Below are positions 12,822 to 29,579 of a stretch of 41,467 nt of DNA, piece by piece. The stretch lies in the NCBI GenBank assembly GCA_001751075.1, contig MAVP01000003.1, positions 1-41,467 of the forward strand, given 5' to 3'. A program made the translations under genes and the position numbers. The stretch is from Desulfobacterales bacterium S7086C20 (GTDB lineage: Bacteria > Desulfobacterota > Desulfobacteria > Desulfobacterales > C00003060). How positions within the stretch are numbered: the stretch's first letter is position 1; each line of letters starts with the position of its first letter. The notes below the pieces were generated by a model, which worked only from the letters and a program-made list of their open reading frames with translations, did no database searches and had not been told where the DNA came from.

Positions 12822-12904
12822 CACGCTAACGCCCATTTGGTTAAAAATATCTATGGATGGACACTAACTATAGAAATCAAAGGCATAGGAGCAAAGTAAC
12901 AACA

Positions 12905-13918
12905 ATGAAAAAAGAAGATGCAATCTCGTTGGACCATGGCAGTGGGGGCAGAGCATCCCATGAACTGATAACCCGCGTTTTCCTGCCGGGATTTGATAAT
13001 GCCCTCCTGGACAGCTTGGAAGATAGTACTGTTTTCGAGGTAGGAGATCACAGGATGGCGTTTTCGACAGATTCCTATACGGTTGATCCAATCTTTTTCC
13101 CTGGTGGAGATATTGGGTGTTTGGCTGTACATGGCACCGTAAATGATATTGCTATGCGAGGGGCCGAACCCCTATATCTCAGTGTGGGCTTCATTATTGA
13201 AGAAGGATTTCCTATGGCCGACCTTGAGCGGATCTTAAAATCAATGAAAGAAGCGGCTGACACGGCCGGTGTACAGATTATTACGGGAGATACAAAGGTG
13301 GTAAATCGCGGTAGCGTTGACAAGATTTTTATTAATACCTCTGGGATTGGTATCATAAAGAGCAAGAGCGATATTGCCGGGAAGAATGCAAGAGTTGGAG
13401 ATTCAGTTTTAGTGAGTGGTACCATGGGAGATCATGGTGTTGCCGTCCTTTCTATGCGCGAAGGCCTTTCTTTTAAAGCTCCGATTCAAAGCGATTCTGC
13501 TCCCCTGAATGGCTTGGTGGCAGATATGATGGCTGCCAGTGATATGATTCATGCAATGCGCGATCCCACCCGTGGCGGGCTTGTTACAACCCTCAATGAA
13601 ATTGCCCTCCAGTCAGATGTGGGAATTGAACTAGTTGAGGACCAAATACCGTTGCGGGAAGGTGTGGAAGGGGCATGTGAACTCCTCGGCCTTGATCCTC
13701 TTTATCTTGCCAATGAAGGCAAGCTTATAGCCTTTGTAGATCCTGCGGATGTACAAAAGGTTCTGGAAACTATGAAGAAAAATCCCTATGGGCGCGAATC
13801 TGTCGTTATTGGCACGGTGGTAGCGGAGAATCAGGGAAAGGTATTTATGAAAACCGGCATTGGCGGTACCCGGATTCTCGACATGCTGACTGGTGAACAG
13901 TTACCGCGTATATGTTAG
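12905..13918 (+). CDS. hypE: Hydrogenase maturation carbamoyl dehydratase
   Basis: HGSGG, PIFFPGGDIG, GDTKVV, RDPTRGG, ANEG, C-terminal LPRIC. Confidence 0.95.
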   Translation: MKKEDAISLDHGSGGRASHELITRVFLPGFDNALLDSLEDSTVFEVGDHRMAFSTDSYTVDPIFFPGGDIGCLAVHGTVNDIAMRGAEPLYLSVGFIIEEGFPMADLERILKSMKEAADTAGVQIITGDTKVVNRGSVDKIFINTSGIGIIKSKSDIAGKNARVGDSVLVSGTMGDHGVAVLSMREGLSFKAPIQSDSAPLNGLVADMMAASDMIHAMRDPTRGGLVTTLNEIALQSDVGIELVEDQIPLREGVEGACELLGLDPLYLANEGKLIAFVDPADVQKVLETMKKNPYGRESVVIGTVVAENQGKVFMKTGIGGTRILDMLTGEQLPRIC

Positions 13919-15912: not shown

Positions 15913-16253
15913 TGCATGAAGTTTCCATTGCAATGGGTCTGATCAAGATGCTCGAAGATGAGACCAAGAAACACGGGGCCTCGCGAGTTACGCAAGTAAA
16001 TGTTCGGATAGGTGAGCTTTCAGCCTGCGTTCCAGATTCGCTTCAATTCGCTTTTGAGGTTGCTACTGAAGGCACTGTTGCGCAGGGGGCCGAACTCAAC
16101 ATAGAGGTAGTGCCCGCTAAAGGGCGATGTGGTGGTTGTGATATAGAGTTTCATGTGGAAGATGCCATATTCCTCTGCCCTCAATGCAATCAAATAGTCT
16201 CAGAAATCATTTCCGGTAGGGAACTCGAACTTACCAATTTTGAAGCGGAATAA
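15912..16253 (+). CDS. hypA: Hydrogenase nickel metallochaperone
   Basis: MHEVSIA N-terminus, CGGC and CPQC, GREL; ATG overlaps the upstream TAA. Confidence 0.93.
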   Translation: MHEVSIAMGLIKMLEDETKKHGASRVTQVNVRIGELSACVPDSLQFAFEVATEGTVAQGAELNIEVVPAKGRCGGCDIEFHVEDAIFLCPQCNQIVSEIISGRELELTNFEAE

Positions 16254-16272
16254 TCCGTTTGGTTCAAAACAG

Positions 16273-16494
16273 ATGAAGTTAAATCTAAAAAACTTCACTA
16301 CCTCCCTTCTTTTCTTGCTAGGTTTCCTGTTGTTCTATAAGTTTCTCAATTCGATTATGCCAAGCACGGGGAGGTGGACGTTCTTATACCCCTTGATGTT
16401 GTTAATACTCGCCCTTGTACTGATCGTGGTCGTGAGTTCAATCATGAAAAAGCGTGAACGCCTCGATGAAGACAAAAAACAGGGGCATCAATAG
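16273..16494 (+). CDS. Small hypothetical membrane protein (2 TM)
   Basis: Two hydrophobic helices and a basic tail. Confidence 0.5.
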   Translation: MKLNLKNFTTSLLFLLGFLLFYKFLNSIMPSTGRWTFLYPLMLLILALVLIVVVSSIMKKRERLDEDKKQGHQ

Positions 16495-16596
16495 AAAGCC
16501 TCCTAGAACTTTACAAAAAAGCCTTTTCCACAAAAGGACTGCTGGGACAACAACCGCGGCCAAATCTATCAAATAGAGTTTGCGAGATCTTACACT

Positions 16597-19500
16597 ATGC
16601 CCACACCACTCATGGAGACACTCAGAAAACAGACCAAAGAGGAAACCATTTCTTACGAGTATACATACTGTCTTGACGGTGGTGAACTGGCTATTGCCGT
16701 AGGTAAAGACGAGAACCAGTACCGTATCAGTCTGATCACAGACATTGACGGACCGCTGATCCTTCATTGGGGTATTTCAAAACATTCTCGGCAGCAATGG
16801 GTCTTGCCGCCGGCCGACATACGTCCTAGTGGAACAGTTGTGCTTCAAGATAAGGCCGCCGAGACGACCTTTGCTGAAGAGGGTGATTACAGAAAAGTTC
16901 AACTAAACCTCGCGGGGAAAGATGCGCCAATCGGCATTCCCTTTGTCGTCAGGCAGGTTGGTACTGATCGTTGGATAAAAGATAATGGGCGCAATTTTTA
17001 TATTCCCGTTGCTGTTTCCCGGCAATACAAAGAGACTTTTAAAGACGTTGCTGTGGCAGGACTTGCCGATACGATCATTGAAAGGGAAATGGGTCCGCAC
17101 TCATGGACACTGATGCATCGCTTCAATCTGTGTTATGACCTGCTGGAAAGTATTGGAGGCAATGTTGAAGGATTAGCGCTGATCTATGTGTGGCTCCGAT
17201 TTTCCGCCTTGAGGCAACTGGACTGGCAGCGCAACTACAACACCCAACCAAGAGAATTGAGCCATGCCCAGGACCGTCTGACCCTTAAACTTGCTGAGCA
17301 GTATCAAAGACAACCACAAGGCCGAGAGTTTATCCGGCTGATACTTACTACCTTGGGCCGAGGCGGTGAAGGGCAGCGTGTGCGTGATGAGGTCTTAAAC
17401 ATTATGCACCGTCATCACATCAAGGAGATTTCAGGCCATTTCATGGAAGAATGGCACCAAAAACTGCATAACAACACCACACCTGATGATGTTGTTATCT
17501 GTGAGGCGTACCTGGCATTCCTCAAAGCAAACGGCAACCTTGACATCTTTTACAAGACTCTCGAGGCGGGTGGTGTTACCAGAAAACGATTGAAGGGCTT
17601 TGAGCGATCCATTGTGTCAGACCCTGATTTCATTGCCCACCTGAAAGAGGCATTGATCCACGATTTTGAACATTTCCTGGGTATCCTCAAAAGCGTTCAT
17701 AGCGGTACTGATCTTGGGACTGCCATCCATGCCGCCAGGCACCTGTTCGATAAAAAACTCCACGATCTAATGGATTTTATATGGGCCCATCGCGATGATC
17801 CGGGAACCCGGGCAGGGATACTCGTTGCAAAGATCGTTGAGGGGCGCCAACACTTGAAGATGCAACTAGAGTACGCCGGAACGAATGGCCGAGATGCGCT
17901 CTTCGTCGACCTTGCACTTGATGATTTCTTGCGTGTTGTCATAGAACGCAATCTTTGCCATGATATCAGCGGAGATGAATTAGCAGAACTGATCACAATG
18001 GTGACAGAAGACCTACTCATCACAGAAGAAAACGACGAACTTGAATACTCTTTGGGCCACTGGAAACGCCTCGGGCAGAGGCCCCGCTTTAAACAGCAGT
18101 GGTCGCTTGAAGCCAAGGCCGTGCTGGACCGTGTTGGGCGTGCCTTAGGTGCTGTAATAGACCGCTATTACCAGATCCTTCAGCCAATGGCGGAATTTCT
18201 AGGCACAGCCTTTGAGGCAGAACCTTGGATTATTACACTATTCAGTGAAGAAGTTGTGCGTGGCAGTCCCGCGTTTGCGCTGGCCGCACTCTTGCGTCAG
18301 ATTGATCCTGTATTGCGGAAAAGCGCCGAGCTTGGCAATTGGCAGGTAATCAGCCCCGGGCAGACAACGGGCATAGTCGATGTAGTCTCTAATATGCAGT
18401 CCATTCAGAGTAAAGACTTTTCGCAAAACACCGTCATCATTGCCGACATTATTACAGGGGCCGAGGAGATTCCGGCAAACATCAGTGCTATCATCACTCC
18501 GGATACAACCGATATCGTATCCCACGTGGCGATTCGTGCCAGAAATGCAAAAGTTCTTTTTGCTACGTGTTACGATAGTGATACAATTGCTCAGTTGAAG
18601 TCCATCAGAGGACACTGGCTCCAGCTAAGCGTGAATGTGGCCGGTGACGTGGTGTTTGAGGAAAGCCGGGAAGCGGATGCAAAAGATGCGAAGCCGCTTT
18701 CTGAGCAAAGCGCTATCCCACACCTCCTATCCCGGCCCGGATTTACCGATTATGCCGTAACCGCCGGTGAGTTTAATGAGGGAAACGTTGGGGGCAAATC
18801 CCACAACTTGAAACAGCTACATGGCAAAGTGCCGAATTGGATTCATTTGCCTGCTTCAGTGGCACTTCCCTTCGGGGTTTTCGAAGAGGTTCTTTTCCGA
18901 GAGGAAAACAGGAAGGTTTCCAAACAATACGAAGCACTGATTCATGATATCGATAAGGAAAAGGAGAATGCAAGGGATGAGATCCTTGGTAAACTCCGAA
19001 AAACTGTTATGTCCCTTGCCGCGCCCGAGGAATTGGTCTCTTGCCTTCGTGAAGCAATGTATGAAGCAAGGCTTCCTTGGCCGGAAAACTGGGAAGGCGC
19101 CTGGAGGGGCATCAAAGGGGTGTGGGCCTCAAAGTGGAATGACAGAGCACTTTTGAGCCGAAAGATCAGAGGAATACCTCATGACGATCTCTTCATGGCT
19201 GTCCTCATCCAAGAGGTGGTTGAGGCTGAATACAGTTTCGTGATTCATACTGTCAATCCTTTGACAGGTGACGGAAAAGAGGTGTATGCAGAGGTCGTTT
19301 CCGGCCTTGGAGAAACCTTGGTGGGCAATTACCCGGGAAGGGCTCTGAGCTTTACCTGTAACAAGGATGGGCTTAAACCAAAGATCAAGGCCTTTCCGAG
19401 CAAGAGCATTGGTCTTTTCGGTAGAGGGTTGATTTTCCGCTCTGATTCTAATGGAGAAGATCTCGCCGATTATGCGGGGGCTGGCCTGTATGACAGCATT

Positions 19501-19716
19501 ATGCTGGAGCCTCCGGTCAAGACCCGCTTGGATTATACCGAGGAATTGCTCATACAAGATGAAGATTTTAGAAACGAATTCATGGTTTCAGTTGCCACTA
19601 TTGGCGCCATAATTGAGGAGGCCTTGGGCTTTCCGCAAGATATCGAGGGAGCATATTGCAAGGGGCAATACCATGTAGTGCAAACGCGCCCACAGGTTGG
19701 AACTGCAAATGAGTAA
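16597..19716 (+). CDS. Alpha-glucan, water dikinase (GWD1/R1-like) with a CBM45-like N-terminus
   Basis: WQRNYNTQPRELSHAQ, GQRVRDEVL, MEEWHQKLHNNTTPDDVVICEAYL, phospho-His SHVAIRARN (His codon 18523), C-terminal ATP domain VWASKWNDRA, FRSDSNGEDLADYAGAGLYDS, QDIEG, VVQTRPQV. Confidence 0.9.
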   Translation: MPTPLMETLRKQTKEETISYEYTYCLDGGELAIAVGKDENQYRISLITDIDGPLILHWGISKHSRQQWVLPPADIRPSGTVVLQDKAAETTFAEEGDYRKVQLNLAGKDAPIGIPFVVRQVGTDRWIKDNGRNFYIPVAVSRQYKETFKDVAVAGLADTIIEREMGPHSWTLMHRFNLCYDLLESIGGNVEGLALIYVWLRFSALRQLDWQRNYNTQPRELSHAQDRLTLKLAEQYQRQPQGREFIRLILTTLGRGGEGQRVRDEVLNIMHRHHIKEISGHFMEEWHQKLHNNTTPDDVVICEAYLAFLKANGNLDIFYKTLEAGGVTRKRLKGFERSIVSDPDFIAHLKEALIHDFEHFLGILKSVHSGTDLGTAIHAARHLFDKKLHDLMDFIWAHRDDPGTRAGILVAKIVEGRQHLKMQLEYAGTNGRDALFVDLALDDFLRVVIERNLCHDISGDELAELITMVTEDLLITEENDELEYSLGHWKRLGQRPRFKQQWSLEAKAVLDRVGRALGAVIDRYYQILQPMAEFLGTAFEAEPWIITLFSEEVVRGSPAFALAALLRQIDPVLRKSAELGNWQVISPGQTTGIVDVVSNMQSIQSKDFSQNTVIIADIITGAEEIPANISAIITPDTTDIVSHVAIRARNAKVLFATCYDSDTIAQLKSIRGHWLQLSVNVAGDVVFEESREADAKDAKPLSEQSAIPHLLSRPGFTDYAVTAGEFNEGNVGGKSHNLKQLHGKVPNWIHLPASVALPFGVFEEVLFREENRKVSKQYEALIHDIDKEKENARDEILGKLRKTVMSLAAPEELVSCLREAMYEARLPWPENWEGAWRGIKGVWASKWNDRALLSRKIRGIPHDDLFMAVLIQEVVEAEYSFVIHTVNPLTGDGKEVYAEVVSGLGETLVGNYPGRALSFTCNKDGLKPKIKAFPSKSIGLFGRGLIFRSDSNGEDLADYAGAGLYDSIMLEPPVKTRLDYTEELLIQDEDFRNEFMVSVATIGAIIEEALGFPQDIEGAYCKGQYHVVQTRPQVGTANE

Positions 19717-22700
19717 TCACCGCCGAATCAGGATCGGCAATCAGAGCGCTTTTTCAGCGGAAAGGGTAATTCAACCCTTCGAGTTTGCCGTAGCAAGTGG
19801 CTTCGATGCCTTTGAATGGCTTCCGGACAAAAAGGAATCCGGAGCTGGTTGGCAAGAATGCGATATTGATGCTCAAACACGCCGTTACATAAGAAACACA
19901 GCCCGTCAACACGACATCAGACTGTCTGTTCATGCCCCGTGGCACGTCAATCCTTCAGAACCAGACCTCAGCGAGCAGCTTCTTAAAACCGTACAGTTTG
20001 CTCAGGACATCGAAGCATCGCTTTTAAATGTCCACCTCTTTACTGAAAATGGGACTGAGGCCTATGTTCGAGGCATCATCCCGTTTATTAAGTCTCTCAG
20101 AAAAACCGGAAGCAGGCTCTCAATCGAGAATACCCCCCTGACAGCCCCCGGGGACTTGAACGCATTTTTTGCTACACTACAACACCTTGCCCCCGCCGAG
20201 GCAACACAGACAGGGATGTGCCTCGACCTGGGACACGCCAATCTGTGTTCCGCCACCTTAAATGACTACATCAAGTTCATTGACCTTCTTGATCCTGACA
20301 TTCCCATCATTCATATTCATCTGCACGAAAACTACGGGGACCATGACAGTCACTTGACCCTGTTTACAGGGCCTTCCGGACAGGATGTCTCCGGCATCAA
20401 GGCCTTTTTAAAACTCATAAAAAAACGCCGGTTTTCAGGCAGTATCATCTTGGAACAGTGGCCCGAACCACCTAGTCTGCTAATTGAGGCCCGTAACAAC
20501 CTGAAAATCATGATCGGCAATTCGCCGCCGCCCCTTGTTGAACCCCGAAATGCCAACACAGAGGACTTTGTGAGTGTTATTGCCGAGGCAGACAGACAAC
20601 ACAGAAGTTGGAGAGAAAAACTTGCCTGGGTCCATGATTTTGTTGCCGAGAAAATCTCTTCTCATAACACGAGGCAACTTACTTACCTGATGATCTATCT
20701 GCGTTTTATCGGCACAGGCCAGGTTGCCTGCACCGAGGATGGCAAACACTACCGTCCTTCTCATCATGCCAAGATCGCCCGCGGAATCCACAATCGTCTG
20801 GCCGAGATAACTACTCCCGAAAATGTCTTTATCATCAGGAAGATCTATCCATGGCTGCCCTCGTATGAGAACCGCTTTGCTAATGCGGAACCACTCACAC
20901 GGATAAGAGATCTTGCCCACCGAAACGATATTTGCAAAGAACTCAAACAAGAAATAAAGCACACACTGCAAAATAAGCTGCACAGATGTGCCGGCCCGGA
21001 GGATCTTGCCACATCAGCAGCCTTGCTTAAAAGGATAACAGCCCCTAATGCAAATTACCCAAATGACTTTGTTAAAGAGTTTGTGAGATTCCATGAAGAA
21101 CTAGAGGAGTTTTTTAATGTCCATTCCTTGGAAGAGCAGCTTGAAGCCATCGCCTCCAATGCTCGGAAGGATGAAGATTCTACTACCTTCAAGTTGATAA
21201 GCGATTTCCTTAAAGCCAAGAAAAAGGCTGTTACGTCGGAAGAGTTGATAACTGCTTTTGAGCTTTTGACAACACTTCGTCGTCAATTTTTTAAAAAGTC
21301 TAAGATTGATACCAGCGCTCAGCAGCAAGGACTTCAACTGGCCGACATAAGATTGGAAGACTATGCTTTTGTTCTGTTGAGCCAATTGATCAATCACCTT
21401 GCCACTGCTGGAAAAGAAAACATGCAGTGGCCTATGGCGGGACACTGTTTAGGCTTGGCCATTTTGAACCTGCGCCTAAGCGGCTTGGACAGCTTCGAAT
21501 GTCGGGCCATAGAATCGGAATTAGAGCTTTGGCATGAAAGTTTTACACCCAAAAACCGTGAGCATGTTCTTCGTCTCAAGGCTACAATTGATCGTTGTCG
21601 AAGACTGGCAGAGAGATATTCAGACAAGATCCTTTCCCTGTTTCCCGAAAAGGTTCAAAGACTGGGCCGGGCCTTGGGTGTGGCCAAAGAAGCCATAAGG
21701 GTTTTTTCTGAGGCCGAGATTCGAAGCCATTTAGTCTTTCAAGTCTCAAGGCTTGTGGATCTTGTGTTGAAATCGATCCGCTCAGTTGCCTACCTCTCTC
21801 CGTGGGACGCTATCGTGTGCGAGAAAGTTTGTGGCCGTCTAGTCGAGACCCAATATCTTGACGATTTATCCGACCTCTCTGATGAACTGGTCGTGGTATT
21901 GCTTGAAAAAGCCCGGGGCGATGAAGAGCTATCTGCCGGCGTAGGAGGTATCGTCTTGGCCCACGAAATGGCGCATCTTTCTCACCTAGCGGTCCGGGCG
22001 CGGCAAGAAAAAGTAGCGCTAGCCGTGTGCGAAGACGCAAACCAATTTGGGGAGCTTAGAAACCTTGTCAATACACAGGTTGTCTTGGGAGTATCTCCTG
22101 AAGGTGTAGTGCTTGAAACCTCCTCAAATCATGGTATCGTAGAGGCAACTGACAGGAAAAGCAAGATTGGGCATGGGAACATTGATGTGGCTGATGTGCC
22201 TTTATCTTTTTCAGTCCCGTTGATCCCACTTAACGAAGTTACGCAGAAAACAGGGGGAAGTAAGGCATATGGAGCAAGACGCCTTGAAGAAATCTCACGC
22301 GTTCAGACCGCTGGGTTTGCAACACCTCCCGGAGTTGTGATTCCCTTTGGTGTGATGGAAGAGTCTCTGCACTTTTCGCCGGCCCTTAAAGAAGAGTACC
22401 AAGCCTTGGTCAACCAGCTAAACGACCTAGAACAAGATGATTTCTCAGAGGCCTTGGCAAGACTGCAACGTATCCATGACGAGCCTAGTGTTTCCCGCGA
22501 GATAGTCCGACTGGTGCAGAAAAAATTCCCGCATGACGCACGACTTATGGTGCGTTCAAGCGCCAACTGCGAGGACCTGGAAAGATTATCAGGGGCCGGG
22601 TTGTACGAATCAGTAGCAAACGTATCGCCATCTGAGCTATCTCAAGCAATATGTGAAGTCTGGAGATCCCTGTGGGCCAAGCGGGCGGTCATGAACAGGA

Positions 22701-23176
22701 AAAGGCATGGCATCCCGCATGATAGGGCTCATATGGCACTGCTCATCCAGCAGATGCTGGTTGCCGATCTTTCGTTCATCATCCACACGGTCAATCCCAT
22801 AGACCATAACACGAACGAGGCTTATGTCGAGCTAGCGGTGGGATTGGGAGAAACCTTGGCCTCCGGCAAGTCCCCGGGATGTCCATATCGAATGCTCTGC
22901 GACAAGAATACAGGGGCGGTCAGAATGCTGGCCTTTGCCAGCTTCAGCCAGGCCTTGTGGCCTGATCTTTCAGTGGATCTGAGAGCCGAAACGATAGACT
23001 ATTCCAAGATCAACCTAACAATAGATGAAGATTTCAGAAACCGTTTGGGGGGCCGCCTTGGAGCAATGAGTCGATTTGTGGAAAAGGCCCTGGGGGGACC
23101 TCAAGATATCGAGGGACTTGTGATTGATAGTAAGATCTATCTTGTCCAGGCGCGACCTCAACAAGATGTTTTGTAA
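19709..23176 (+). CDS. Phosphoglucan, water dikinase (PWD/GWD3-like) fused to an N-terminal AP-endonuclease-2/xylose-isomerase-like TIM barrel
   Basis: SWREKL, CTEDGKHYRPSHHA, PLTRIRDLAHRNDI, KQEIKHTLQNKLHRCAGPEDL, HLSHLAVRARQEKV (His codon 21983), VRSSANCEDL..SGAGLYES, VQARPQ; ATG 19709 overlaps the GWD stop. Confidence 0.9.
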   Translation: MSNHRRIRIGNQSAFSAERVIQPFEFAVASGFDAFEWLPDKKESGAGWQECDIDAQTRRYIRNTARQHDIRLSVHAPWHVNPSEPDLSEQLLKTVQFAQDIEASLLNVHLFTENGTEAYVRGIIPFIKSLRKTGSRLSIENTPLTAPGDLNAFFATLQHLAPAEATQTGMCLDLGHANLCSATLNDYIKFIDLLDPDIPIIHIHLHENYGDHDSHLTLFTGPSGQDVSGIKAFLKLIKKRRFSGSIILEQWPEPPSLLIEARNNLKIMIGNSPPPLVEPRNANTEDFVSVIAEADRQHRSWREKLAWVHDFVAEKISSHNTRQLTYLMIYLRFIGTGQVACTEDGKHYRPSHHAKIARGIHNRLAEITTPENVFIIRKIYPWLPSYENRFANAEPLTRIRDLAHRNDICKELKQEIKHTLQNKLHRCAGPEDLATSAALLKRITAPNANYPNDFVKEFVRFHEELEEFFNVHSLEEQLEAIASNARKDEDSTTFKLISDFLKAKKKAVTSEELITAFELLTTLRRQFFKKSKIDTSAQQQGLQLADIRLEDYAFVLLSQLINHLATAGKENMQWPMAGHCLGLAILNLRLSGLDSFECRAIESELELWHESFTPKNREHVLRLKATIDRCRRLAERYSDKILSLFPEKVQRLGRALGVAKEAIRVFSEAEIRSHLVFQVSRLVDLVLKSIRSVAYLSPWDAIVCEKVCGRLVETQYLDDLSDLSDELVVVLLEKARGDEELSAGVGGIVLAHEMAHLSHLAVRARQEKVALAVCEDANQFGELRNLVNTQVVLGVSPEGVVLETSSNHGIVEATDRKSKIGHGNIDVADVPLSFSVPLIPLNEVTQKTGGSKAYGARRLEEISRVQTAGFATPPGVVIPFGVMEESLHFSPALKEEYQALVNQLNDLEQDDFSEALARLQRIHDEPSVSREIVRLVQKKFPHDARLMVRSSANCEDLERLSGAGLYESVANVSPSELSQAICEVWRSLWAKRAVMNRKRHGIPHDRAHMALLIQQMLVADLSFIIHTVNPIDHNTNEAYVELAVGLGETLASGKSPGCPYRMLCDKNTGAVRMLAFASFSQALWPDLSVDLRAETIDYSKINLTIDEDFRNRLGGRLGAMSRFVEKALGGPQDIEGLVIDSKIYLVQARPQQDVL

Positions 23177-24221
23177 AACCATAGCCACAGTTTCCCAATC
23201 TCCTCGCTTGCTGGGACTCTTTCAGAAAAGGATTGATGGTGATGATGCACTGCTCGATTTGGCCAGGGTCCGTTTTAATGAAATGGGTCTTGGAGCAGAG
23301 TTTTATGCTGAAACAACAGAGGAACTTGACCACTTACTGAAATTCAGACCTGCGGCTGAAACCCCTCTGGTGGCCCATTTGCGGCGTGGAATTAATCTGC
23401 TCGAGAAAAAGGATTTGAGCTTAGTCATTGATTTTGCAGAAAGATTCAAAGGCCGGCTCTTTGGCTTTGTCGTCCATGATCAACCCGAAATCTCCACCCG
23501 CTTTGACGATTACTTGTCTGCTTTAAACAGGCTTGAAGCTGAATACAACAAGATCCAGGGGAGCCCCTATCTTTTCATAGAATATGCTGTGGGCCTGGCC
23601 CCTTCTCTTTTTGTCCATTTCGCAGAAACCATGAAAGGTCTTCAGCGAATAAGCTGTTGCATTGACATAGGTCATATCGGCCTATGGCAGGCGAGAACTG
23701 CTTATAGCAAAGAGCATCCCGGAAAAGATGTATGTAGCCTAACAACAGACGATTCTTCTTTGCCGGAAGTAATCGAAGACGTTCAAAGTGCGGTTCGTTC
23801 AGCACTGGATACAGTGTTAAGCATAGTTCGGGTGCTAGGCCGTTTAGAAAAACCGTTGCATTTCCATCTTCATGATGGCCATCCTCTTTCAATTACGAGT
23901 CCCTTTGGAATTTCCGACCACCTGAGTTTTCTGGATAAAATTCCCGTTCCCTTTGAATACAAGGGAAAAAGGTCTCTTGATCCCATGTTTGGTCCTTCAG
24001 GTCTTTCAAGTATCGTTTCTGAGTCATTGAAGCACCTCGGTCCAGAGCAAGTCTCTTTTTCACTTGAGATTCATCCTGCACAGGGAAGGCTTCCCCTTGA
24101 AGATGCTTCTTACCTTTTCGATCACTGGGAGGAAAAGACGAATGCAGAAAGGATGAACCACTGGCTTTGGGTGCTTTCTCAAAATCAGCAGCTTGTGCAG
24201 AACTCATTGGAAGGAAAATAA
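23166..24221 (+). CDS. Metal-binding TIM-barrel protein (AP endonuclease 2/sugar-phosphate isomerase-like), function unknown
   Basis: FIEY, CIDIGH, HFHLHDGH, SDH, SLEIH ligand pattern; ATG overlaps the PWD end. Confidence 0.7.
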   Translation: MFCKTIATVSQSPRLLGLFQKRIDGDDALLDLARVRFNEMGLGAEFYAETTEELDHLLKFRPAAETPLVAHLRRGINLLEKKDLSLVIDFAERFKGRLFGFVVHDQPEISTRFDDYLSALNRLEAEYNKIQGSPYLFIEYAVGLAPSLFVHFAETMKGLQRISCCIDIGHIGLWQARTAYSKEHPGKDVCSLTTDDSSLPEVIEDVQSAVRSALDTVLSIVRVLGRLEKPLHFHLHDGHPLSITSPFGISDHLSFLDKIPVPFEYKGKRSLDPMFGPSGLSSIVSESLKHLGPEQVSFSLEIHPAQGRLPLEDASYLFDHWEEKTNAERMNHWLWVLSQNQQLVQNSLEGK

Positions 24222-24223
24222 CT

Positions 24224-25522
24224 GTGAAACCAACGGCAAAGATGATCATCTATAATTTGTTCCCTCTCTTGGCAGGCAAGTTTACCGATTGGGAAAAGCA
24301 TTTGTTAAGGGCATCTGAGATGGGCTTCAATTGGGTTTTTGTGAATCCGATTCAGCGTCCCGGAAAATCGGGGAGCCTTTACTCTATTGCCGACTATTAT
24401 GCCTTCAACCCGTTGCTGGTTGACAAAGAGAGCCGAAAGAAACCGCAACAGCAGGTAAAAGATGTTGCCGGGTCTGCGGAAAAACTGGGCCTCAGCTTGA
24501 TGGTGGATCTTGTAATCAATCACTGCGCTGCTGATTCGGAGCTGATCAAGTCTCACCCGAAATGGTTTCAGTGGAAGGACAGCGATCATGTGGCCCACCC
24601 TTCCTGTGACGAAAACGGAGAAAGGGTGGTCTGGAAAGACCTTGCGAAGTTTGATCATGACAACTCGCAGGACAAGGAAGGACTTTTTAGATTTCTATCT
24701 GATGTGGTGATGTACCTGATAGATCTAGGATTTAAGGGTTTCCGTTGTGACGCAGCGTATCAAGTCCCCAGGGCCGTGTGGGAAAGGCTCATAAGTGAGA
24801 TACGAAAGAGACATCCTGAGGTGAAGTTCTTTGCGGAAACACTCGGGTGTTCACCAGACCAAACCATACAAACAGCAGGAGCTGGTTTTGACTACATATT
24901 TAACAGCTCAAAGTGGTGGGATTTTGAAGCCCAGTGGTTGATGAAACAATATGCCCTTACGCGTGAGATTGCGCCTTCCATAGGTTTTCCTGAAAGCCAC
25001 GATACCGTGAGGCTCTATGATGAACTCGATGGCAACATGGCTGGGATGAAACAACGCTATCTATTTTCAGCACTTTTCTCTTCAGGGGTTATGATGCCCA
25101 TGGGGTTTGAATACGGCTTCAGGAGAAAACCCCATGTAGTAAAGACAAGGCCACAAGACTGGGAAACAACCGATGTTGATATGACGCATTTCATAAAAGC
25201 CGTAAACAAGCTTAAGGCAGGGCATGCAATCTTTCAGGAAGAAGCGCTAACCGAAATACTGTACTACAACAATCCGAATCTTCTCCTCTTGTGGAAGGCC
25301 TCTACTACCACTCAAGAAGAATGTCTCATTATCGTCAACAAGGATATTTCCAACAAACAGCATTTTCATGTAGAAAGTCTGCAAGAATTTGTTCAGGCAG
25401 GGGCTCCACTTGTTGATCTCTCTCCAGAATATCAAATGAACTATATTCCCAGCCCCTTTTCGTACGATTTCCGGCCAGGACAGGGTATAGTCTTGATGAC
25501 TTTAAGGGATTTGCCGAAGTAG
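24224..25522 (+). CDS. GH13 alpha-amylase-family glycoside hydrolase/transferase
   Basis: DLVINH, GFRCDAAY (nucleophile D), FFAETL (acid E), ESHDT; GGAAGGA RBS before GTG 24224. Confidence 0.85.
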   Translation: MKPTAKMIIYNLFPLLAGKFTDWEKHLLRASEMGFNWVFVNPIQRPGKSGSLYSIADYYAFNPLLVDKESRKKPQQQVKDVAGSAEKLGLSLMVDLVINHCAADSELIKSHPKWFQWKDSDHVAHPSCDENGERVVWKDLAKFDHDNSQDKEGLFRFLSDVVMYLIDLGFKGFRCDAAYQVPRAVWERLISEIRKRHPEVKFFAETLGCSPDQTIQTAGAGFDYIFNSSKWWDFEAQWLMKQYALTREIAPSIGFPESHDTVRLYDELDGNMAGMKQRYLFSALFSSGVMMPMGFEYGFRRKPHVVKTRPQDWETTDVDMTHFIKAVNKLKAGHAIFQEEALTEILYYNNPNLLLLWKASTTTQEECLIIVNKDISNKQHFHVESLQEFVQAGAPLVDLSPEYQMNYIPSPFSYDFRPGQGIVLMTLRDLPK

Positions 25523-25671: not shown

Positions 25672-26433
25672 ATGCATCTTGTTGCTCTTCACGTGTTTGG
25701 TTTGTATCTTCTCAATAAACTTAACTTAATAACCTGGGGCAATAAGGCCATTAACCGACTCAGGCCGAACGGGTGGGTGTTACCAGTGTATTGTTGTGCA
25801 ACAAGTGAAACCGCTGACAAAGCACACAGCCTCATAGATTCTTGCATCGAAACAAGAGTTGTTCTTTTGCCCGTTGACCCGTACCTGGTTCATGTTTACT
25901 GGGAGGTCAACTCTAAGGAAATTGATAGAGCAAGATATTTGCTGGGTGACACATACGAATCTTCGCAGGCTTTACTCAGGTTCTATGATGTTACCAATGT
26001 TTTCTTTGACGGTACAAATGCCAACAGCTCGTTTGATGTGAAAATCGACCTTGAATCGAAGAGCTGGTATGTTCGCCTCTGGGTCCCAGACAAGTCATAC
26101 GTTGTTGAACTGGGCTATAGGACCACCGACGGCAGTTTCTTTTCGTTGGCACAATCAAACACCGCGCGCACACCCCGTGCCTGGCCTGTACCAAGGGTGG
26201 ATGACACCTACTCGCTCGTTGATCGACGTGCCGACGATGGCCTGGCAACCACCGAAGTCCATACAGCACCTCATGGCGGTGACAAGAAGCAATCCAATCG
26301 GCGAGAGTTAACCTCCCAAACGTGGGAAACCGAGCCTGAACCCAAAGATGAGAGTTTAACACAGATGAATGAGGAGCAATTTTCCTTTGGTATGTCATCA
26401 TATCGTATCTCATCAATACGGTGCTTGCGATGA
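25672..26433 (+). CDS. DUF4912 domain protein (start uncertain)
   Basis: ETRVVLLPVDP..HVYWEV, LRFYDVT, WYV, YVVELGY, SNTARTPR; usual neighbour of GH57 branching enzymes. Confidence 0.75.
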   Translation: MHLVALHVFGLYLLNKLNLITWGNKAINRLRPNGWVLPVYCCATSETADKAHSLIDSCIETRVVLLPVDPYLVHVYWEVNSKEIDRARYLLGDTYESSQALLRFYDVTNVFFDGTNANSSFDVKIDLESKSWYVRLWVPDKSYVVELGYRTTDGSFFSLAQSNTARTPRAWPVPRVDDTYSLVDRRADDGLATTEVHTAPHGGDKKQSNRRELTSQTWETEPEPKDESLTQMNEEQFSFGMSSYRISSIRCLR

Positions 26434-26485
26434 TCAGCTCTGAAGTTTCACGATTTCCTACAAGTCCTTTTCGCGGGGTTTGAAA

Positions 26486-28081
26486 ATGGAAAAGGCTTAT
26501 CTGGCTATTGTGCTTCATGCGCATCTTCCTTATGTCAGACATCCTGAACACGTAGATTCTCTTGAGGAGAACTGGCTGTATGAGGCTATCACCGATACTT
26601 ACATCCCTCTGCTTTTCGTGCTGGAAGGTTGTGTAAAAGATGGAATTGACTTTCGCCTGACTCTGTCACTTACCCCCACCCTTGCCTCTATGCTCGCAGA
26701 CCCGTTGTTGCAGAGCAGATATTTGGAAAGACTGGAAAGGATGATAGAGTTGGCCCAAAAGGAGATTAAACGCACTAGATCCCAGCCCGAATTTAACGCC
26801 TTGGCCCTTATGTACAACACCCGTCTTGGGCAGGTGCATGAGGCTTTCGTCAATCGTTATGAACAAAACTTGCTCCAGGCCTTCAGGTCCCTACAAGAAC
26901 GCGGAAAAGTGGAAATCATGGCCTGCGCCGCCACGCATGCTTATCTCCCCCTGCTTTCAGTAAACAGGTCCGCTGTTAGGGGACAGATTGGGATCGGGGT
27001 TGAACATTACAGGGAAGTATTCGGGAAAAGCCCCGAGGGCTTCTGGTTGCCGGAATGCGGTTATTATCCTGGAGTCGACGAATTACTCGACGAATATGGC
27101 ATACGATATACTGTACTTGAGACTCACGGTATCACGCGGGGCAACCCAAGACCTGAGTTTGGCGTCAATGCCCCTGTTTTTTGTTCCTCAGGAGTTGCTG
27201 CCTTTGGGCGAGACCCTAAATCCTCGGCCCAAGTTTGGAGTTCTGAAATCGGTTATCCAGGGGATTATGATTACAGGGAATTCTATCGTGACATTGCTTA
27301 CGATCTTGACCTCGGATATGTCGCGCCCTATATTCACAGGGATGGGATTCGAGTAGATACCGGCTTTAAGTATTTCCGTATTACCGGCAAGGGCAATCAC
27401 AAGGACACCTACATCCCAGAACAAGCAGAAAAGAAGGCCGAGCTTCACGCAGAAGATTTTATATCCAAGCGCTTCAAACAGGTTGAATATCTTGGCTCCA
27501 TTATGGATCGCAAACCAATCATTGTGGCCCCCTTTGACGCTGAGCTATTCGGCCATTGGTGGCATGAAGGACCATTGTGGCTGGACCATGTTATCCGCAA
27601 ACTTCATTCGGCACAGGCGGGAATCAGGCTTGCTACGCTTTCTGAATACCTCGAACAATATCCCATAAATCAGGTTTCAACACCTTCCTATTCCAGTTGG
27701 GGACACCATGGGTTCAATGAGACCTGGCTCAACGGGAAAAACGAATGGATCTATCCTTGTCTCCATAAAAGCGCACTGCAAATGGAAAGGCTGGCGAACA
27801 ATTATCCTCAGGCCAAAGGCTTGACATTGAGGGCGCTTAAACAAGCAGCACGGGAGTTGTTGCTGGCACAGTCAAGCGACTGGGCTTTTATGATCAATGC
27901 AGGCACTATGGCAGAATACGCTACTGAGCGAACCAAAAGGCATATCTCCCGCTTGGCAAGACTAGCACAAGACGTTGAGTCAGACAGTATCGACCAAGTC
28001 TGGCTGTCCAAATTGGAAACCCGGGACAACATCTTTCCTGGAATAGACTACCGCTTCTTTTGTGGAAGTTCTCGTTTATGA
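26486..28081 (+). CDS. GH57 1,4-alpha-glucan branching enzyme (DUF1957 C-terminus)
   Basis: HAHLPYV, FWLPECGY, PFDAELFGHWWHEG, RELLLAQSSDWAF. Confidence 0.9.
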   Translation: MEKAYLAIVLHAHLPYVRHPEHVDSLEENWLYEAITDTYIPLLFVLEGCVKDGIDFRLTLSLTPTLASMLADPLLQSRYLERLERMIELAQKEIKRTRSQPEFNALALMYNTRLGQVHEAFVNRYEQNLLQAFRSLQERGKVEIMACAATHAYLPLLSVNRSAVRGQIGIGVEHYREVFGKSPEGFWLPECGYYPGVDELLDEYGIRYTVLETHGITRGNPRPEFGVNAPVFCSSGVAAFGRDPKSSAQVWSSEIGYPGDYDYREFYRDIAYDLDLGYVAPYIHRDGIRVDTGFKYFRITGKGNHKDTYIPEQAEKKAELHAEDFISKRFKQVEYLGSIMDRKPIIVAPFDAELFGHWWHEGPLWLDHVIRKLHSAQAGIRLATLSEYLEQYPINQVSTPSYSSWGHHGFNETWLNGKNEWIYPCLHKSALQMERLANNYPQAKGLTLRALKQAARELLLAQSSDWAFMINAGTMAEYATERTKRHISRLARLAQDVESDSIDQVWLSKLETRDNIFPGIDYRFFCGSSRL

Positions 28082-28112: not shown

Positions 28113-29579
28113 ATGTTTATCGTTATGATCACCCCGGAATGTGCCCCTGTTGCCAAAGTCGGTGGCCTGGGAGATGTCGTACAGGGGCTTTCCCGCGAAC
28201 TGGACCTCAGGGGAAATGCGGTAGAGATTATTCTGCCCAAGTATGATTGTATGCGCTACGATCGCATCTGGGGGCTTGAAAAGACATTCGGAGATTTATG
28301 TGTTCCCTACCATGACCAGCATGTTCATTGCGATGTCTATTTCGGCTTTGTAGACGGCCTGAAATGCTTTTTCATTGAACCGCATTCTTTCAAGAATTTT
28401 TTCGACCGGCACACCTTCTACGGGCACGATGATGACGTCGAACGCTTTGCCTTCTTTTCCAGAGCTGCCCTGGAGTTCATGCTCAAGACAAACAAGCATC
28501 CCGACATTATCCACTGTCACGATTGGCAGACGGCGCTGGCGCCGGTCCTTCTCTTTGATATATATAAACACATGGGAATGACCCACCCGAGAGTCTGCTA
28601 TACGTTGCACAATCTCAAGCATCAGGGTGTCACCGGGGAATATGTGCTGCGCCAAGTCGGCCTGGATCCTGCTCATTACATGACACAGGACAAGCTTCAA
28701 GACAACTTCAACCACGGTGCTGTAAACCTGATGAAGGGAGGAATCGTTTATTCAAACTTTATTACCACAGTCTCCCCTCGCTATGCCGACGAAATAAAAC
28801 ATTCTGACATGGGATGCGGCTTGCAACATACACTCCATGACCATGCCGCAAAATTTGGTGGAGTCTTAAACGGCATTGATTACAACGTTTGGAATCCAGA
28901 AACCGACCCCTATATTGCCTGTCAATATGGAGTGGAAACGGTCGGTGACAAATACAAAAACAAAGAGGCCCTACGCCAAAGGCTCTGGTTAGGAAAGGGT
29001 TTCAAGCCGATTGTTGCTGTGGTAAGTCGTCTCGACCATCAAAAAGGGGTGGGCCTGATACGGCACGCGATTTCTTATGCCCTTGAAAACTCCTGTCAGT
29101 TTATCCTTTTAGGATCAAGTCCTGATCCCGTCACCAACAACGATTTCTGTGCCCTGAAGCAATGGCTGAATGACAACCCAGATTGTCACCTCGAGATTTC
29201 ATATGATGAGGAGCTGGCACACCTCATATATGCAGGGGCTGACATGATTCTCATACCCAGCGCCTTTGAACCTTGCGGCCTGACACAAATGATCGCCATG
29301 AAATATGGAACTCTCCCCATTGTTCGAAACATTGGCGGATTAGCAGACACAGTGTCTGATGCGGATTATTCGCACAGGCCGTATCACGAACGTAACGGCT
29401 ATGTTTTTAATGATTTTGATAACCAAGGGCTCCAGTCTGCAATGAGCCGGGCCATTGGCCTTTGGAACGTATACCCAGAGTATTTCCGGGAGCTTATGGT
29501 AAATGCAATGAGGTACGACTACTCCTGGAACCATCCTGGACAGCACTATCTCAATATTTACAATCACATTAAGGAGTAG
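28113..29579 (+). CDS. glgA: GT5 glycogen/starch synthase, KVGGL (SSIII/SSIV/GlgA2-like) type
   Basis: PECAPVAKVGGLGDV, ILPKYDCM, HCHDWQTA, TTVSP, NGID, FEPCGLTQMIAM, GGLADTV. Confidence 0.93.
   Translation: MFIVMITPECAPVAKVGGLGDVVQGLSRELDLRGNAVEIILPKYDCMRYDRIWGLEKTFGDLCVPYHDQHVHCDVYFGFVDGLKCFFIEPHSFKNFFDRHTFYGHDDDVERFAFFSRAALEFMLKTNKHPDIIHCHDWQTALAPVLLFDIYKHMGMTHPRVCYTLHNLKHQGVTGEYVLRQVGLDPAHYMTQDKLQDNFNHGAVNLMKGGIVYSNFITTVSPRYADEIKHSDMGCGLQHTLHDHAAKFGGVLNGIDYNVWNPETDPYIACQYGVETVGDKYKNKEALRQRLWLGKGFKPIVAVVSRLDHQKGVGLIRHAISYALENSCQFILLGSSPDPVTNNDFCALKQWLNDNPDCHLEISYDEELAHLIYAGADMILIPSAFEPCGLTQMIAMKYGTLPIVRNIGGLADTVSDADYSHRPYHERNGYVFNDFDNQGLQSAMSRAIGLWNVYPEYFRELMVNAMRYDYSWNHPGQHYLNIYNHIKE

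What the first reader, a model, noticed from the sequence alone, without database searches (positions are those of the whole stretch)
16597..19716. Intronless bacterial homologue of plant GWD1 (R1/SEX1)
Seen: the domain order is CBM, helical central domain, phospho-His, C-terminal ATP-binding domain. That is the GWD order; PEP synthase and PPDK have the nucleotide-binding domain at the N-terminus. The GWD-specific strings WQRNYN.PRE.S.AQ, EEWHQKLHNNT.PDD..IC.A and FRSDSNGEDL..YAGAGLYDS are present, and His643 is intact. At 1039 aa it is shorter than land-plant GWD1. Inference: an active C6 glucan kinase that automated pipelines would probably label PEP/pyruvate-binding domain protein.
Basis: partly seen in the sequence, partly recalled or inferred. 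Interest (0 to 1): 0.88.

Follow-up and report, generated by a model that had tools for sequence, protein, structure and literature searches.

The report
Bacterial starch-type glucan water dikinase gene
This sediment bacterium carries a true relative of the plant enzyme that phosphorylates starch, inside a conserved glucan-storage gene cluster, but thousands of such bacterial genes are already in databases, so it is an untested member of a known family, not a one-off.

Summary
ORF 16597-19716 (+) encodes 1039 aa with the order CBM45-like Ig domain, GWD central helical domain, phospho-His domain (His643) and C-terminal ATP domain. All three quoted motifs are present. It is a genuine GWD-family protein. 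The potato GWD1 central domain (PDB 9HA9) matches at E 5e-93, and plant and green-algal GWD1 are 41-43% identical over 745 aa. PEP synthase and rifampin phosphotransferase models match only the last ~200 aa, far below their cut-offs.

It is not rare. Relatives occur in Thermodesulfobacteriota, Nitrospirota, Scalindua, Verrucomicrobiota and others. JGI already names them "alpha-glucan, water dikinase", and a 2018 tree legend notes bacterial GWDs as possible LGT.

New here is the context: a conserved cluster of GWD, a second TIM-barrel-fused dikinase, a TIM-barrel-like ORF, a GH13 enzyme, DUF4912, a GH57 branching enzyme and GlgA.

In the trees the rows grouped as bacterial form one clade (SH-aLRT 99 and 94) beside the Viridiplantae-containing clade. 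An AU test does not reject a sister position to all eukaryotes (p 0.106), so the transfer direction is unresolved. Activity and C6 specificity are inferred, not shown.

The parts
16597..19716 (+). GWD-family alpha-glucan, water dikinase gene, 1039 aa (P0001)
   Evidence: ORF, translation. Three GWD-type Pfam domains. 41-43% identical to plant and green-algal GWD1 over 745 aa. AF2 model built with an 83-sequence alignment: pLDDT 89.6, pTM 0.83.
16675..17010 (+). Single CBM45-type Ig-like starch-binding domain (residues 27-138). By position it corresponds to the second CBM45 of two-CBM homologues.
   Evidence: PF23166 at E 3.2e-27; the same stretch was found. W58, W68 and W126 are invariant in 83 sequences. 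Query residue 7 aligns to residue 131 of a 1161-aa homologue, and residue 18 to residue 427 of an unnamed 1471-aa representative (P0259) that groups with tomato and Arabidopsis GWD1.
17062..18327 (+). GWD central helical domain (residues 156-577), the presumed glucan-acceptor side
   Evidence: phmmer against PDB 9ha9_A and 9qvi_A (potato GWD1 central domain), E 5e-93 and 2.3e-92. E551, E552 and R555 fall in the columns of StGWD1 E900, E901 and R904.
18337..18675 (+). Phospho-histidine domain (residues 581-693); catalytic His643 codon at 18523-18525
   Evidence: PF22973 at E 4.9e-36. H643 is invariant in 83 of 83 sequences and aligned to tomato His1070, which is StGWD1 mature His992.
18754..19701 (+). 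C-terminal ATP-binding (ATP-grasp, PPDK_N-type) domain, roughly residues 720-1035
   Evidence: PF01326 at E 1e-25. Foldseek hits the ATP-binding domain of rifampin phosphotransferase 5hv6 with TM (target) 0.74-0.76. R948, S949, D950, E954, D955, G961, A962 and G963 are invariant.
19697..23176 (+). Second dikinase ('DK2'), 1159 aa: xylose-isomerase-like TIM barrel, then a helical region, a GWD-type pHis domain and a C-terminal ATP domain. Its start overlaps the GWD stop by 20 nt.
   Evidence: Pfam AP_endonuc_2 at 28-261, GWD1_pHisD at 703-810, PPDK_N at 854-1156. 25% identical to the GWD over residues 261-1033, E 4e-49. Directly downstream of GWD in 25 of 56 loci with enough flank.
23166..24221 (+). 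Conserved ORF ('orf365') with no Pfam or NCBIfam family; probably a divergent xylose-isomerase-like TIM barrel
   Evidence: No family even at E 10. The Atlas's own model has TM 0.57-0.74 to AP_endonuc_2 clusters, which is a lead only. Collinear weak motif matches to the DK2 N-terminal domain. Present in 29 of 80 related loci.
24167..25522 (+). GH13-type alpha-glucan enzyme ('amy451')
   Evidence: Pfam hDGE_amylase at E 2.7e-25 and Alpha-amylase at E 3e-9. Only weak NCBIfam hits, far below cut-offs. Present in 36 of 80 loci.
25672..26433 (+). DUF4912 protein
   Evidence: PF16258 at E 1e-34. Present in 16 of 80 loci, next to GH57.
26480..28081 (+). GH57 1,4-alpha-glucan branching enzyme
   Evidence: Pfam Glyco_hydro_57 plus BE_C. 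NCBIfam NF041133 at E 1e-102, below its cut-off.
28113..29579 (+). GT5 glycogen/starch synthase GlgA (ADP-glucose type)
   Evidence: NF001905 at 880.8 bits against a cut-off of 560. Pfam Glyco_transf_5.

Best explanation
The gene encodes a cytosolic bacterial alpha-glucan, water dikinase of the GWD family.

**Mechanism, by homology with potato GWD1.** The C-terminal ATP-grasp domain binds ATP. The beta-phosphate goes to His643 on the swivelling His domain, and the gamma-phosphate goes to water. The His domain then swings to the central helical domain, where the phosphate is passed to a glucosyl hydroxyl of an alpha-1,4-glucan held by the single CBM45. The target is inferred to be C6.

**Substrate.** It is most likely the cell's own storage polyglucan. 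That glucan would be made by the GlgA and GH57 branching enzyme encoded 7-10 kb downstream in the same gene string. Phosphorylation would open ordered glucan for breakdown by the cluster's GH13 enzyme, and by the phosphorylase and GlgX encoded elsewhere in the genome.

**Partner.** A second, paralogous dikinase (DK2) overlaps the GWD stop codon. It probably acts on the same polymer.

Shown: family membership, domain order, conserved catalytic residues, and conserved gene neighbourhood. Inferred: enzymatic activity, C6 position, the nature of the glucan, and the role of DK2.
For: - **Family signatures.** Three GWD-type Pfam domains score above their cut-offs. The potato GWD1 central domain matches at E 5e-93. 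Identity to named plant and green-algal GWD1 is 41-43% over 98-100% of a 745-aa query.
- **Catalytic residues.** H643 is invariant in 83 of 83 sequences and lies in the StGWD1 His992 column. E551, E552, R555, R574 and W582 match StGWD1 E900, E901, R904, R923 and W931. The roles of those residues come from passages of PMC13553574 and the bioRxiv preprint 10.64898/2026.02.06.704335.
- **Structure.** The AF2 model has pLDDT 89.6. Its ATP domain superposes on rifampin phosphotransferase and PEP synthase ATP domains.
- **Gene context.** In 80 related loci from at least 9 phylum labels, tblastn found DK2 in 35, the GH13 enzyme in 36, orf365 in 29, GH57 in 19, DUF4912 in 16 and GlgA in 13. Of 56 loci with at least 3.6 kb downstream, 45 hold at least one cluster gene and 25 have DK2 directly downstream.
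- **Rest of the pathway.** The same genome encodes glycogen phosphorylase, a GlgX-type debranching enzyme above its cut-off, and a GlgC fragment at a contig end.
- **Bacterial chromosomal setting.** The gene lies between PpiD/HypA and housekeeping genes with no GC anomaly. Contigs from a run of another study bridge both the HypA-GWD and GWD-DK2 junctions.
Against: - No biochemical data exist for any bacterial member in the papers I could search.
- The position phosphorylated cannot be read from sequence.
- The StGWD1 residue E971, proposed to polarise the His, aligns with A622 here. That column is variable (E 29, D 26, N 19, S 3 of 83 as printed), and E623 next to it is at least 90% conserved, so the equivalence is ambiguous.
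- Only one CBM45 is present, against two in plant GWD1.
- No DSP-type (SEX4/laforin-like) glucan phosphatase was found in this 95.7%-complete genome, so the dephosphorylation half of the plant cycle has no identified counterpart.
- Eukaryote-focused papers state that GWD goes with semi-crystalline starch and is not seen in glycogen accumulators. Nothing here shows what polymer this bacterium stores.
Confidence: 0.8

Rival explanations
1. The fold and chemistry are the same, but the acceptor or role differs. The enzyme might phosphorylate soluble glycogen or maltodextrins, or a non-storage or extracellular alpha-glucan. It might also phosphorylate a position other than C6, with the GWD/DK2 pair dividing the work differently from plant GWD/PWD.
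For: Potato GWD1 itself accepts amylopectins, glycogens and amyloses (passage of PMC13553574). The cluster uses GH57 and GT5 enzymes typical of bacterial glycogen. DK2 carries no CBM20 and has a TIM barrel instead, so it is not a plain PWD. No DSP phosphatase was found in the genome.
Against: The CBM45 tryptophans and the central-domain residues facing the His are conserved with plant GWD1. The neighbourhood with GlgA and branching enzyme is conserved across phyla. By inspection of the translation, the N-terminus does not look like a signal peptide; no predictor was run.
Confidence: 0.13
2. It is a catalytically dead or purely regulatory or structural glucan-binding relative of GWD.
For: One proposed helper residue (StGWD1 E971) is Ala in this alignment. 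No RNA holder was listed, but the tool says this carries no weight.
Against: H643, the ATP-domain motif residues R948, S949, D950, E954, D955, G961, A962 and G963, and K734 are invariant across 83 bacterial and eukaryotic sequences. The ORF is intact at 1039 aa, and its closest relative is 92% identical at the same length. That pattern is what purifying selection on an enzyme would give.
Confidence: 0.04
3. The gene is eukaryotic contamination or an assembly chimera in a metagenome-assembled genome.
For: The genome is a 241-contig assembly with 2.54% estimated contamination. The family is best known from plants and algae.
Against: The gene sits mid-contig between bacterial housekeeping genes and overlaps the next gene by 20 nt. 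A 91%-identical locus in another Desulfobacterales MAG has the same PpiD-HypA-GWD-DK2-orf365-GH13 order. Contigs from run X3, from a different study, bridge both junctions. The protein groups with sequences from named bacterial MAGs, not with eukaryotes.
Confidence: 0.01

Closest known systems
Plant and green-algal GWD1 (R1/SEX1; EC 2.7.9.4), e.g. Solanum tuberosum GWD1 (central-domain structures 9HA9 and 9QVI) and Arabidopsis GWD1
   Same: Same domain order after the first CBM45: CBM45, central helical domain, His domain, C-terminal ATP domain. Identity is 41-43% over 745 aa. The central domain matches at E 5e-93. The catalytic His and the facing E/E/R residues are conserved.
   Different: One CBM45 instead of two, and no DUF7067 linker element. 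About 360-430 aa shorter. Encoded in a bacterial gene string with a second dikinase, a GH57 branching enzyme and GlgA. Never assayed.
The uncharacterised bacterial GWD clade (MAG proteins that JGI names 'alpha-glucan, water dikinase' and NCBI names 'PEP/pyruvate-binding domain-containing protein')
   Same: The window protein is a member: 92% identical to the closest and 54-67% to the other 119 listed. It shares the clade (SH-aLRT 99 and 94) and the gene neighbourhood.
   Different: Many members are about 1160 aa; the two scanned (P0004, P0035) carry two CBM45 domains. This is one of the shorter forms, about 1020-1050 aa, with a single CBM45.
Phosphoglucan, water dikinase (PWD/GWD3; EC 2.7.9.5)
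   Same: Same superfamily architecture, with the His domain before a C-terminal ATP domain. PF22973 also occurs on CBM20-bearing eukaryotic clusters.
   Different: PWD carries an N-terminal CBM20 (recalled; consistent with the cluster rows). The window GWD has a CBM45 and no CBM20. The neighbouring DK2 has a TIM barrel instead. No PWD sequence was available here, so the DK2-PWD relationship is untested.
PEP synthase, PPDK and rifampin phosphotransferase
   Same: Homologous ATP-grasp nucleotide-binding domain and swivelling phospho-His chemistry.
   Different: Their ATP domain is N-terminal. They match only residues ~836-1035 here. Scores are 5-25 times below family cut-offs, for example 71.8 against 598 bits. 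They have no CBM45 or GWD central domain.

Membership tests
GWD (alpha-glucan, water dikinase, EC 2.7.9.4) | N-terminal CBM45-type starch-binding module with conserved tryptophans | tested here: met
   PF23166 Ig_N_CWD1 at 27-138, E 3.2e-27, 95.6 bits against a cut-off of 27. W58, W68 and W126 are invariant in 83 sequences. The link between this Pfam family and CBM45 is my inference from the Pfam name and from passages of PMC13553574.
GWD (alpha-glucan, water dikinase, EC 2.7.9.4) | GWD-specific central helical domain | tested here: met
   Residues 156-577 align to 9ha9_A (25-466 of 467) at E 5e-93. The AF2 model is all-helical there with pLDDT mostly 86-97.
GWD (alpha-glucan, water dikinase, EC 2.7.9.4) | Phospho-His domain with the catalytic His (StGWD1 His992, mature numbering) | tested here: met
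   PF22973 at E 4.9e-36. H643 lies in the column of tomato His1070 and is H in 83 of 83 sequences.
GWD (alpha-glucan, water dikinase, EC 2.7.9.4) | ATP-binding domain at the C-terminus (order reversed relative to PEPS/PPDK) | tested here: met
   PF01326 at 836-1035. PEPS profile positions 156-336 of 798 match protein 838-1034. Foldseek TM (target) 0.74-0.76 to 5hv6.
GWD (alpha-glucan, water dikinase, EC 2.7.9.4) | Central-domain and His-domain residues proposed to assist transfer (StGWD1 E900, E901, R904, E971) | tested here: inconclusive
   E551, E552 and R555 are conserved. The E971 column holds A622 here, with a conserved E623 adjacent. The roles of these residues are proposals in the papers, not proven.
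GWD (alpha-glucan, water dikinase, EC 2.7.9.4) | ATP-dependent autophosphorylation and transfer of the beta-phosphate to glucan C6 | not testable with these tools
   Needs a recombinant protein assay.
Land-plant GWD1 subtype | Two tandem CBM45 modules with the DUF7067 linker element | tested here: not met
   One Ig_N_CWD1 stretch and no PF23229 in P0001. Arabidopsis and Chlamydomonas GWD1 have two stretches plus PF23229.
PWD (phosphoglucan, water dikinase) | N-terminal CBM20 | tested here: not met
   No CBM_20 hit in P0001 or in DK2 at E 0.01.
PEP synthase / rifampin phosphotransferase | Full-length match above the curated family cut-off | tested here: not met
   Best scores are NF005057 at 71.8 bits against 598 and NF041857 at 66.8 against 999, covering only the C-terminal ~200 aa.

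The most novel reading that the evidence does not exclude
The GWD-DK2 pair and its seven-gene cluster may be an old bacterial system for making and mobilising an ordered, starch-like, phosphorylated polyglucan in anaerobic sediment bacteria. Eukaryotic starch phosphorylation (GWD, perhaps also PWD) would then descend from this bacterial system, not the reverse. The two xylose-isomerase-like TIM barrels (the DK2 N-terminus and orf365) would supply the missing glucan-phosphate esterase step. The data do not exclude this. The rows grouped as bacterial form one clade, and a tree holding all eukaryote-grouped rows together is not rejected (p-AU 0.106).
Probability: 0.15. Interest if true: 0.85.

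Novelty: new member of a known kind. Interest (0 to 1): 0.5.

Why it matters
Starch researchers treat GWD as a hallmark of eukaryotes that store semi-crystalline starch (passages). Bacterial copies have been mentioned only as possible LGT in one figure legend.

This gene belongs to a large, coherent bacterial clade with its own conserved glucan operon and a paired second dikinase. That makes two questions directly testable:

1. Do sulfate reducers, Nitrospirota and anammox bacteria store phosphorylated, ordered glucan?
2. Which way did the gene move between bacteria and eukaryotes?

A compact 1039-aa, single-CBM45 enzyme might also be a simpler subject for full-length structure work and for in-vitro starch phosphorylation than the ~1400-aa plant enzymes. 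Full-length potato GWD1 was refractory to crystallization.

Tried and rejected
- **Single-sequence AF2.** The model of P0001 was useless (pLDDT 34.6). It was replaced by the alignment-based model.
- **Foldseek against PDB.** It did not return 9HA9 or 9QVI. That library stops at 8 April 2026, and I suspect the entries are later, so the central-domain match rests on sequence.
- **ESM Atlas on P0323.** It gave no usable taxon label.
- **Naming of representatives.** Of the 38 rows I grouped as eukaryotic, 11 are named eukaryotic by a source. Four are marine metagenome ORFs judged eukaryote-like, with neighbours scanned for 3 of the 4. The other 23 are grouped only by tree position. Of the 25 rows grouped as bacterial, 16 are the window plus named MAG loci, and 9 are unnamed.
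- **Expression.** No RNA holder was listed for the gene.
- **Promoter and terminator scans.** Both were at the shuffled expectation (15 against 15.8, and 17 against 15.1), so no operon boundary is claimed.
- **MAFFT.** The --localpair run timed out; FFT-NS-i was used instead.
- **DK2 versus PWD.** Whether DK2 is the counterpart of PWD could not be tested.
- **Literature.** The searches cover only open-access PMC and bioRxiv. Book chapters by Ball, Colleoni, Colpaert and colleagues, cited in the preprint, were not readable and may discuss bacterial GWD. Supplementary trees (Fig. S5 of the preprint, and additional files of PMC6260743) were not seen.
- **Wording of Desulfotignum note.** 'Myxococcota' labels come from records titled 'Deltaproteobacteria bacterium' and should not be trusted.
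Full report
**Observation**

One search lists a single ORF at 16597..19716 (+), 1039 aa, starting with ATG. One search shows in-frame stops upstream. One search also places the quoted strings at residues 210-215 (WQRNYN), 284-294 (EEWHQKLHNNT) and 947-956 (FRSDSNGEDL), and puts His at 643 inside SHVAIRARN.

Pfam finds three families, all far above their cut-offs of 27 bits:
- Ig_N_CWD1 at 27-138 (E 3.2e-27)
- GWD1_pHisD at 581-693 (E 4.9e-36)
- PPDK_N at 836-1035 (E 1e-25)

Against all PDB chain sequences, the best matches are 9ha9_A and 9qvi_A, named 'Alpha-glucan water dikinase, chloroplastic'. They cover residues 156-577 at E 5e-93 and 2.3e-92. Passages of the bioRxiv preprint 10.64898/2026.02.06.704335 identify these entries as the open and closed central domain of potato GWD1.

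**Family identity**

PEP synthase, rifampin phosphotransferase and prodigiosin-ligase NCBIfam models match only the last ~200 residues. Their scores are 34-72 bits against cut-offs of 598-1700.

I searched with a 745-aa piece (residues 156-900) restricted to proteins longer than 1304 aa, to step over the bacterial relatives. That search returned 440 hits at E ≤ 0.001 among 8000 scored. The 120 listed are 38-44% identical. Most cover 98-100% of the query. The named rows are land-plant and green-algal proteins, many called alpha-glucan water dikinase, including Arabidopsis, tomato, Chlamydomonas, Parachlorella and Closterium.

In an 83-sequence alignment of bacterial and eukaryotic members, H643 is invariant. 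So are W58, W68 and W126 of the CBM45-type domain, K734, and R948, S949, D950, E954, D955, G961, A962 and G963 of the ATP-domain motif.

I mapped the residues that the potato structural papers single out, using tomato GWD1 with an offset of 78. StGWD1 E900, E901, R904, R923, W931 and H992 correspond to E551, E552, R555, R574, W582 and H643 here. E971 falls on A622 in a variable column next to a conserved E623.

An AlphaFold2 model built with the alignment has mean pLDDT 89.6 and pTM 0.83. [quoted passage not shown] It aligns its N-terminal Ig domain to an isoamylase chain, presumably the N-terminal module.

The protein has one CBM45-type domain. By alignment it corresponds to the second, core-proximal CBM45 of the ~1160-aa bacterial forms and of an unnamed plant-like representative.

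**How common it is**

The word-indexed search found 2514 proteins at E ≤ 0.001 among 8000 scored. The 120 listed are 54-92% identical, and 119 of the 120 carry all three Pfam families. Every organism name given is bacterial or metagenomic: Desulfobacterales, Deltaproteobacteria, Thermodesulfobacteriota, Nitrospirota and Dissulfurispiraceae. JGI calls them 'alpha-glucan, water dikinase'. NCBI calls them 'PEP/pyruvate-binding domain-containing protein', 'hypothetical protein', 'Phosphoenolpyruvate synthase' or 'phosphohistidine-like domain-containing protein'.

The exhaustive scan of 50%-identity representatives found 5792 proteins at E ≤ 0.001 and 555 at E ≤ 1e-30.

In the one-genome-per-species collection, 130 of 149 pattern-matched stretches encode a relative. 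The 80 loci kept carry these labels:
- Nitrospirota: 39
- Thermodesulfobacteriota: 17
- Planctomycetota (Scalindua): 3
- Verrucomicrobiota: 3
- Pseudomonadota: 3
- Acidobacteriota: 2
- Chloroflexota: 1
- Nitrospinota: 1
- Deltaproteobacteria-named records: 5
- Promethearchaeota: 1, on a 4.2-kb contig
- No phylum label: 5

Within the window's own phylum the domain is patchy. PF23166 was found in 8 of 301 sampled genomes including the window's own, and in none of the 9 same-order genomes listed.

The closest named locus, L016, is 91% identical. It comes from an uncultured Desulfobacterales MAG and has the same PpiD-HypA-GWD-DK2-orf365-GH13 order.

**Context**

The contig is ordinary bacterial chromosome. 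It carries SLT/LysM, QueC, a radical-SAM protein, a PTPS-family protein, rhomboid, UvrD, a PBP, DnaJ, TPM, LemA, an AIR-synthase-related protein, PpiD and HypA upstream. Downstream lie a CDP-alcohol transferase, a LeuA-like gene, an M24 peptidase, a phosphate-binding protein and a ParA-like gene. There is no GC anomaly.

Directly after the GWD come six genes on the same strand:
1. A 1159-aa second dikinase (DK2), whose TTG start overlaps the GWD stop by 20 nt. It has an AP_endonuc_2/xylose-isomerase-like TIM barrel, a GWD-type pHis domain and a C-terminal ATP domain. It is 25% identical to the GWD over residues 261-1033 (E 4e-49).
2. A family-less ORF that looks like a divergent TIM barrel of the same superfamily. 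This is a lead only.
3. A GH13 enzyme.
4. A DUF4912 protein.
5. A GH57 branching enzyme.
6. GlgA, at 880.8 bits against a cut-off of 560.

I ran tblastn with these window proteins against the 80 loci. It found DK2 in 35, GH13 in 36, orf365 in 29, GH57 in 19, DUF4912 in 16 and GlgA in 13, mostly in the same order. Many loci are truncated. Among the 56 with at least 3.6 kb downstream, DK2 is directly downstream in 25 and somewhere in the locus in 30. At least one cluster gene is present in 45, and 11 have none.

The genome (95.7% complete, 241 contigs) also encodes glycogen phosphorylase, a GlgX-type debranching enzyme (747 bits against 640.9) and a GlgC fragment at a contig end. No DSP-type phosphatase was found.

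The DNA recurs in marine-sediment and cold-seep metagenomes: 20 holding runs from 16 studies, one of which may be the source. Contigs of run X3, from another study, bridge 16257-16915 and 18604-19927. These spans cross both junctions of the gene.

**Evolution**

A FastTree of 197 rows placed the window in a clade of 108 rows holding all named bacterial loci (support 0.948). The rows comprised 12 DK2 as outgroup, 76 bacterial loci plus the window, 7 named Viridiplantae, and 101 representatives of at least 900 aa. One row was dropped for low fill. The 108-row clade sat next to a clade holding the named Viridiplantae.

Deep unnamed clades were partly labelled by a profile search:
- P0324 is Chromera velia.
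- P0421 is Zooxanthella.
- P0244 and P0300 are MMETSP transcripts.
- P0406 and P0418 are EukProt entries.

One further clade (B1) was tied to marine metagenome contigs. Their neighbours are long AMP-binding-ankyrin, ion-channel, Mpv17/PMP22 and CBM20 proteins at 52-67% GC. I read these contigs as picoeukaryote-like.

An IQ-TREE quick tree used LG+C20+F+G4 PMSF on 70 rows and 859 columns, with 7 DK2 as outgroup.
- All 25 rows grouped as bacterial form one clade (SH-aLRT 99).
- That clade sits in an unresolved three-way split with B1 and the Viridiplantae-containing clade (node support 83).
- The alveolate/EukProt clade lies outside.

I then left out the one long-branch row, P0364.
- B1 moves to the base.
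- The bacterial clade (94) becomes sister to the Viridiplantae-containing clade (80).

The AU test of a tree holding all 38 eukaryote-grouped rows together gives a log-likelihood 18.8 lower and p-AU 0.106. That is not rejected.

So the rows grouped as bacterial share one origin in these trees. The free trees nest that clade among eukaryotic lineages, as the LGT reading in the Goniomonas paper's figure legend would predict (passages of PMC6260743). But the root position is unstable, and a sister-group position with a possible bacterial origin is not excluded. Only 11 of the 38 eukaryote-grouped rows and 16 of the 25 bacterial-grouped rows carry a source name.

**Literature**

Eight full-text searches found no characterised bacterial GWD. 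The only mention I saw is the legend of Fig. [quoted passage not shown]

A 2026 review (passages) and a 2026 preprint (passages) discuss GWD only for eukaryotes. The preprint states that dikinases are never seen in glycogen accumulators, and lists only a few cyanobacteria, Clostridia and some Verrucomicrobia as prokaryotes with starch-like granules.

The potato GWD1 structure papers contain no word beginning 'bacteri' or 'prokaryot'.

**Verdict**

The gene is not exceptional as a sequence. It is one member of a large bacterial clade that databases already recognise and nobody has assayed.

The added value lies in four points: the conserved seven-gene glucan cluster, the paired TIM-barrel dikinase, the absence of a recognisable glucan phosphatase, and the unresolved direction of transfer. 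I rate it a new member of a known kind, of moderate interest.

Noticed in passing
window 19697-23176 (+): The second dikinase has an unusual architecture: an N-terminal AP_endonuc_2/xylose-isomerase-like TIM barrel (weak hit to the cobamide-remodelling phosphodiesterase CbiR, E 6.8e-11, below its cut-off) fused to a GWD/PWD-type helical, pHis and ATP core. It lies directly downstream of GWD in 25 of 56 loci across several phyla. The TIM barrel might be a phosphoesterase acting on phosphoglucan. Its relation to eukaryotic PWD is untested.
   Followed up: partly
window 23166-24221 (+): A conserved ORF with no Pfam or NCBIfam family. It has collinear motifs of the D-x-G-H and H-x-H-L-H type, like the DK2 TIM barrel, and the Atlas's structure model resembles AP_endonuc_2 clusters (TM 0.57-0.74). 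Its nearest Atlas clusters are bacterial: Nitrospirota and, for the next two, Actinomycetota.
   Followed up: partly
L067 (4193-bp contig labelled Promethearchaeota) and L068: The only 'archaeal' GWD locus sits on a 4.2-kb contig. In the tree it is almost identical to a Thermodesulfobacteriota MAG sequence (end branches 0.06 and 0.05). It is probably a binning error, not an Asgard GWD.
   Followed up: partly
L083-L162, e.g. L094:5593-9006, L162:6115-9213, L130:4076-7801: Marine metagenome contigs up to 186 kb carry uninterrupted GWD ORFs of about 1030-1240 aa. Their neighbours look eukaryotic (Mpv17/PMP22, an AMP-binding-ankyrin fusion, an ion channel) at 52-67% GC. They form a deep, well-supported GWD clade (B1) distinct from the clade with the named land-plant and green-algal GWD1. 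The organisms were not identified.
   Followed up: partly
proteins P0301, P0389-P0452: Dozens of near-identical GWD variants of 1253-1322 aa sit on ENA contigs of about 4.0-4.2 kb, barely longer than the gene. One 90%-identity cluster has up to 168 members. This looks like transcript assemblies of one abundant eukaryote group. They branch with an MMETSP sequence.
   Followed up: no
PMC4046663 (Desulfotignum phosphitoxidans genome paper), passage seen: The paper lists adjacent genes Dpo_3c01990 and Dpo_3c02000 as 'pyruvate water dikinase'. An adjacent pair in a cultured Desulfobacterota species could be this GWD-DK2 pair mislabelled. That would offer a cultivable test organism. I did not check this.
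   Followed up: no
G000 contig C37:19647-19829: The only good GlgC (ADP-glucose pyrophosphorylase) match is a 61-position fragment cut by a contig end. The gene is probably present but unassembled.
   Followed up: no
window 12857-13918 and 15852-16253 (+): An AIR-synthase-related protein and HypA (hydrogenase nickel chaperone) lie just upstream, separated by PpiD. The HypA start overlaps the PpiD end by about 60 nt as called, so the real start may lie further downstream.
   Followed up: no
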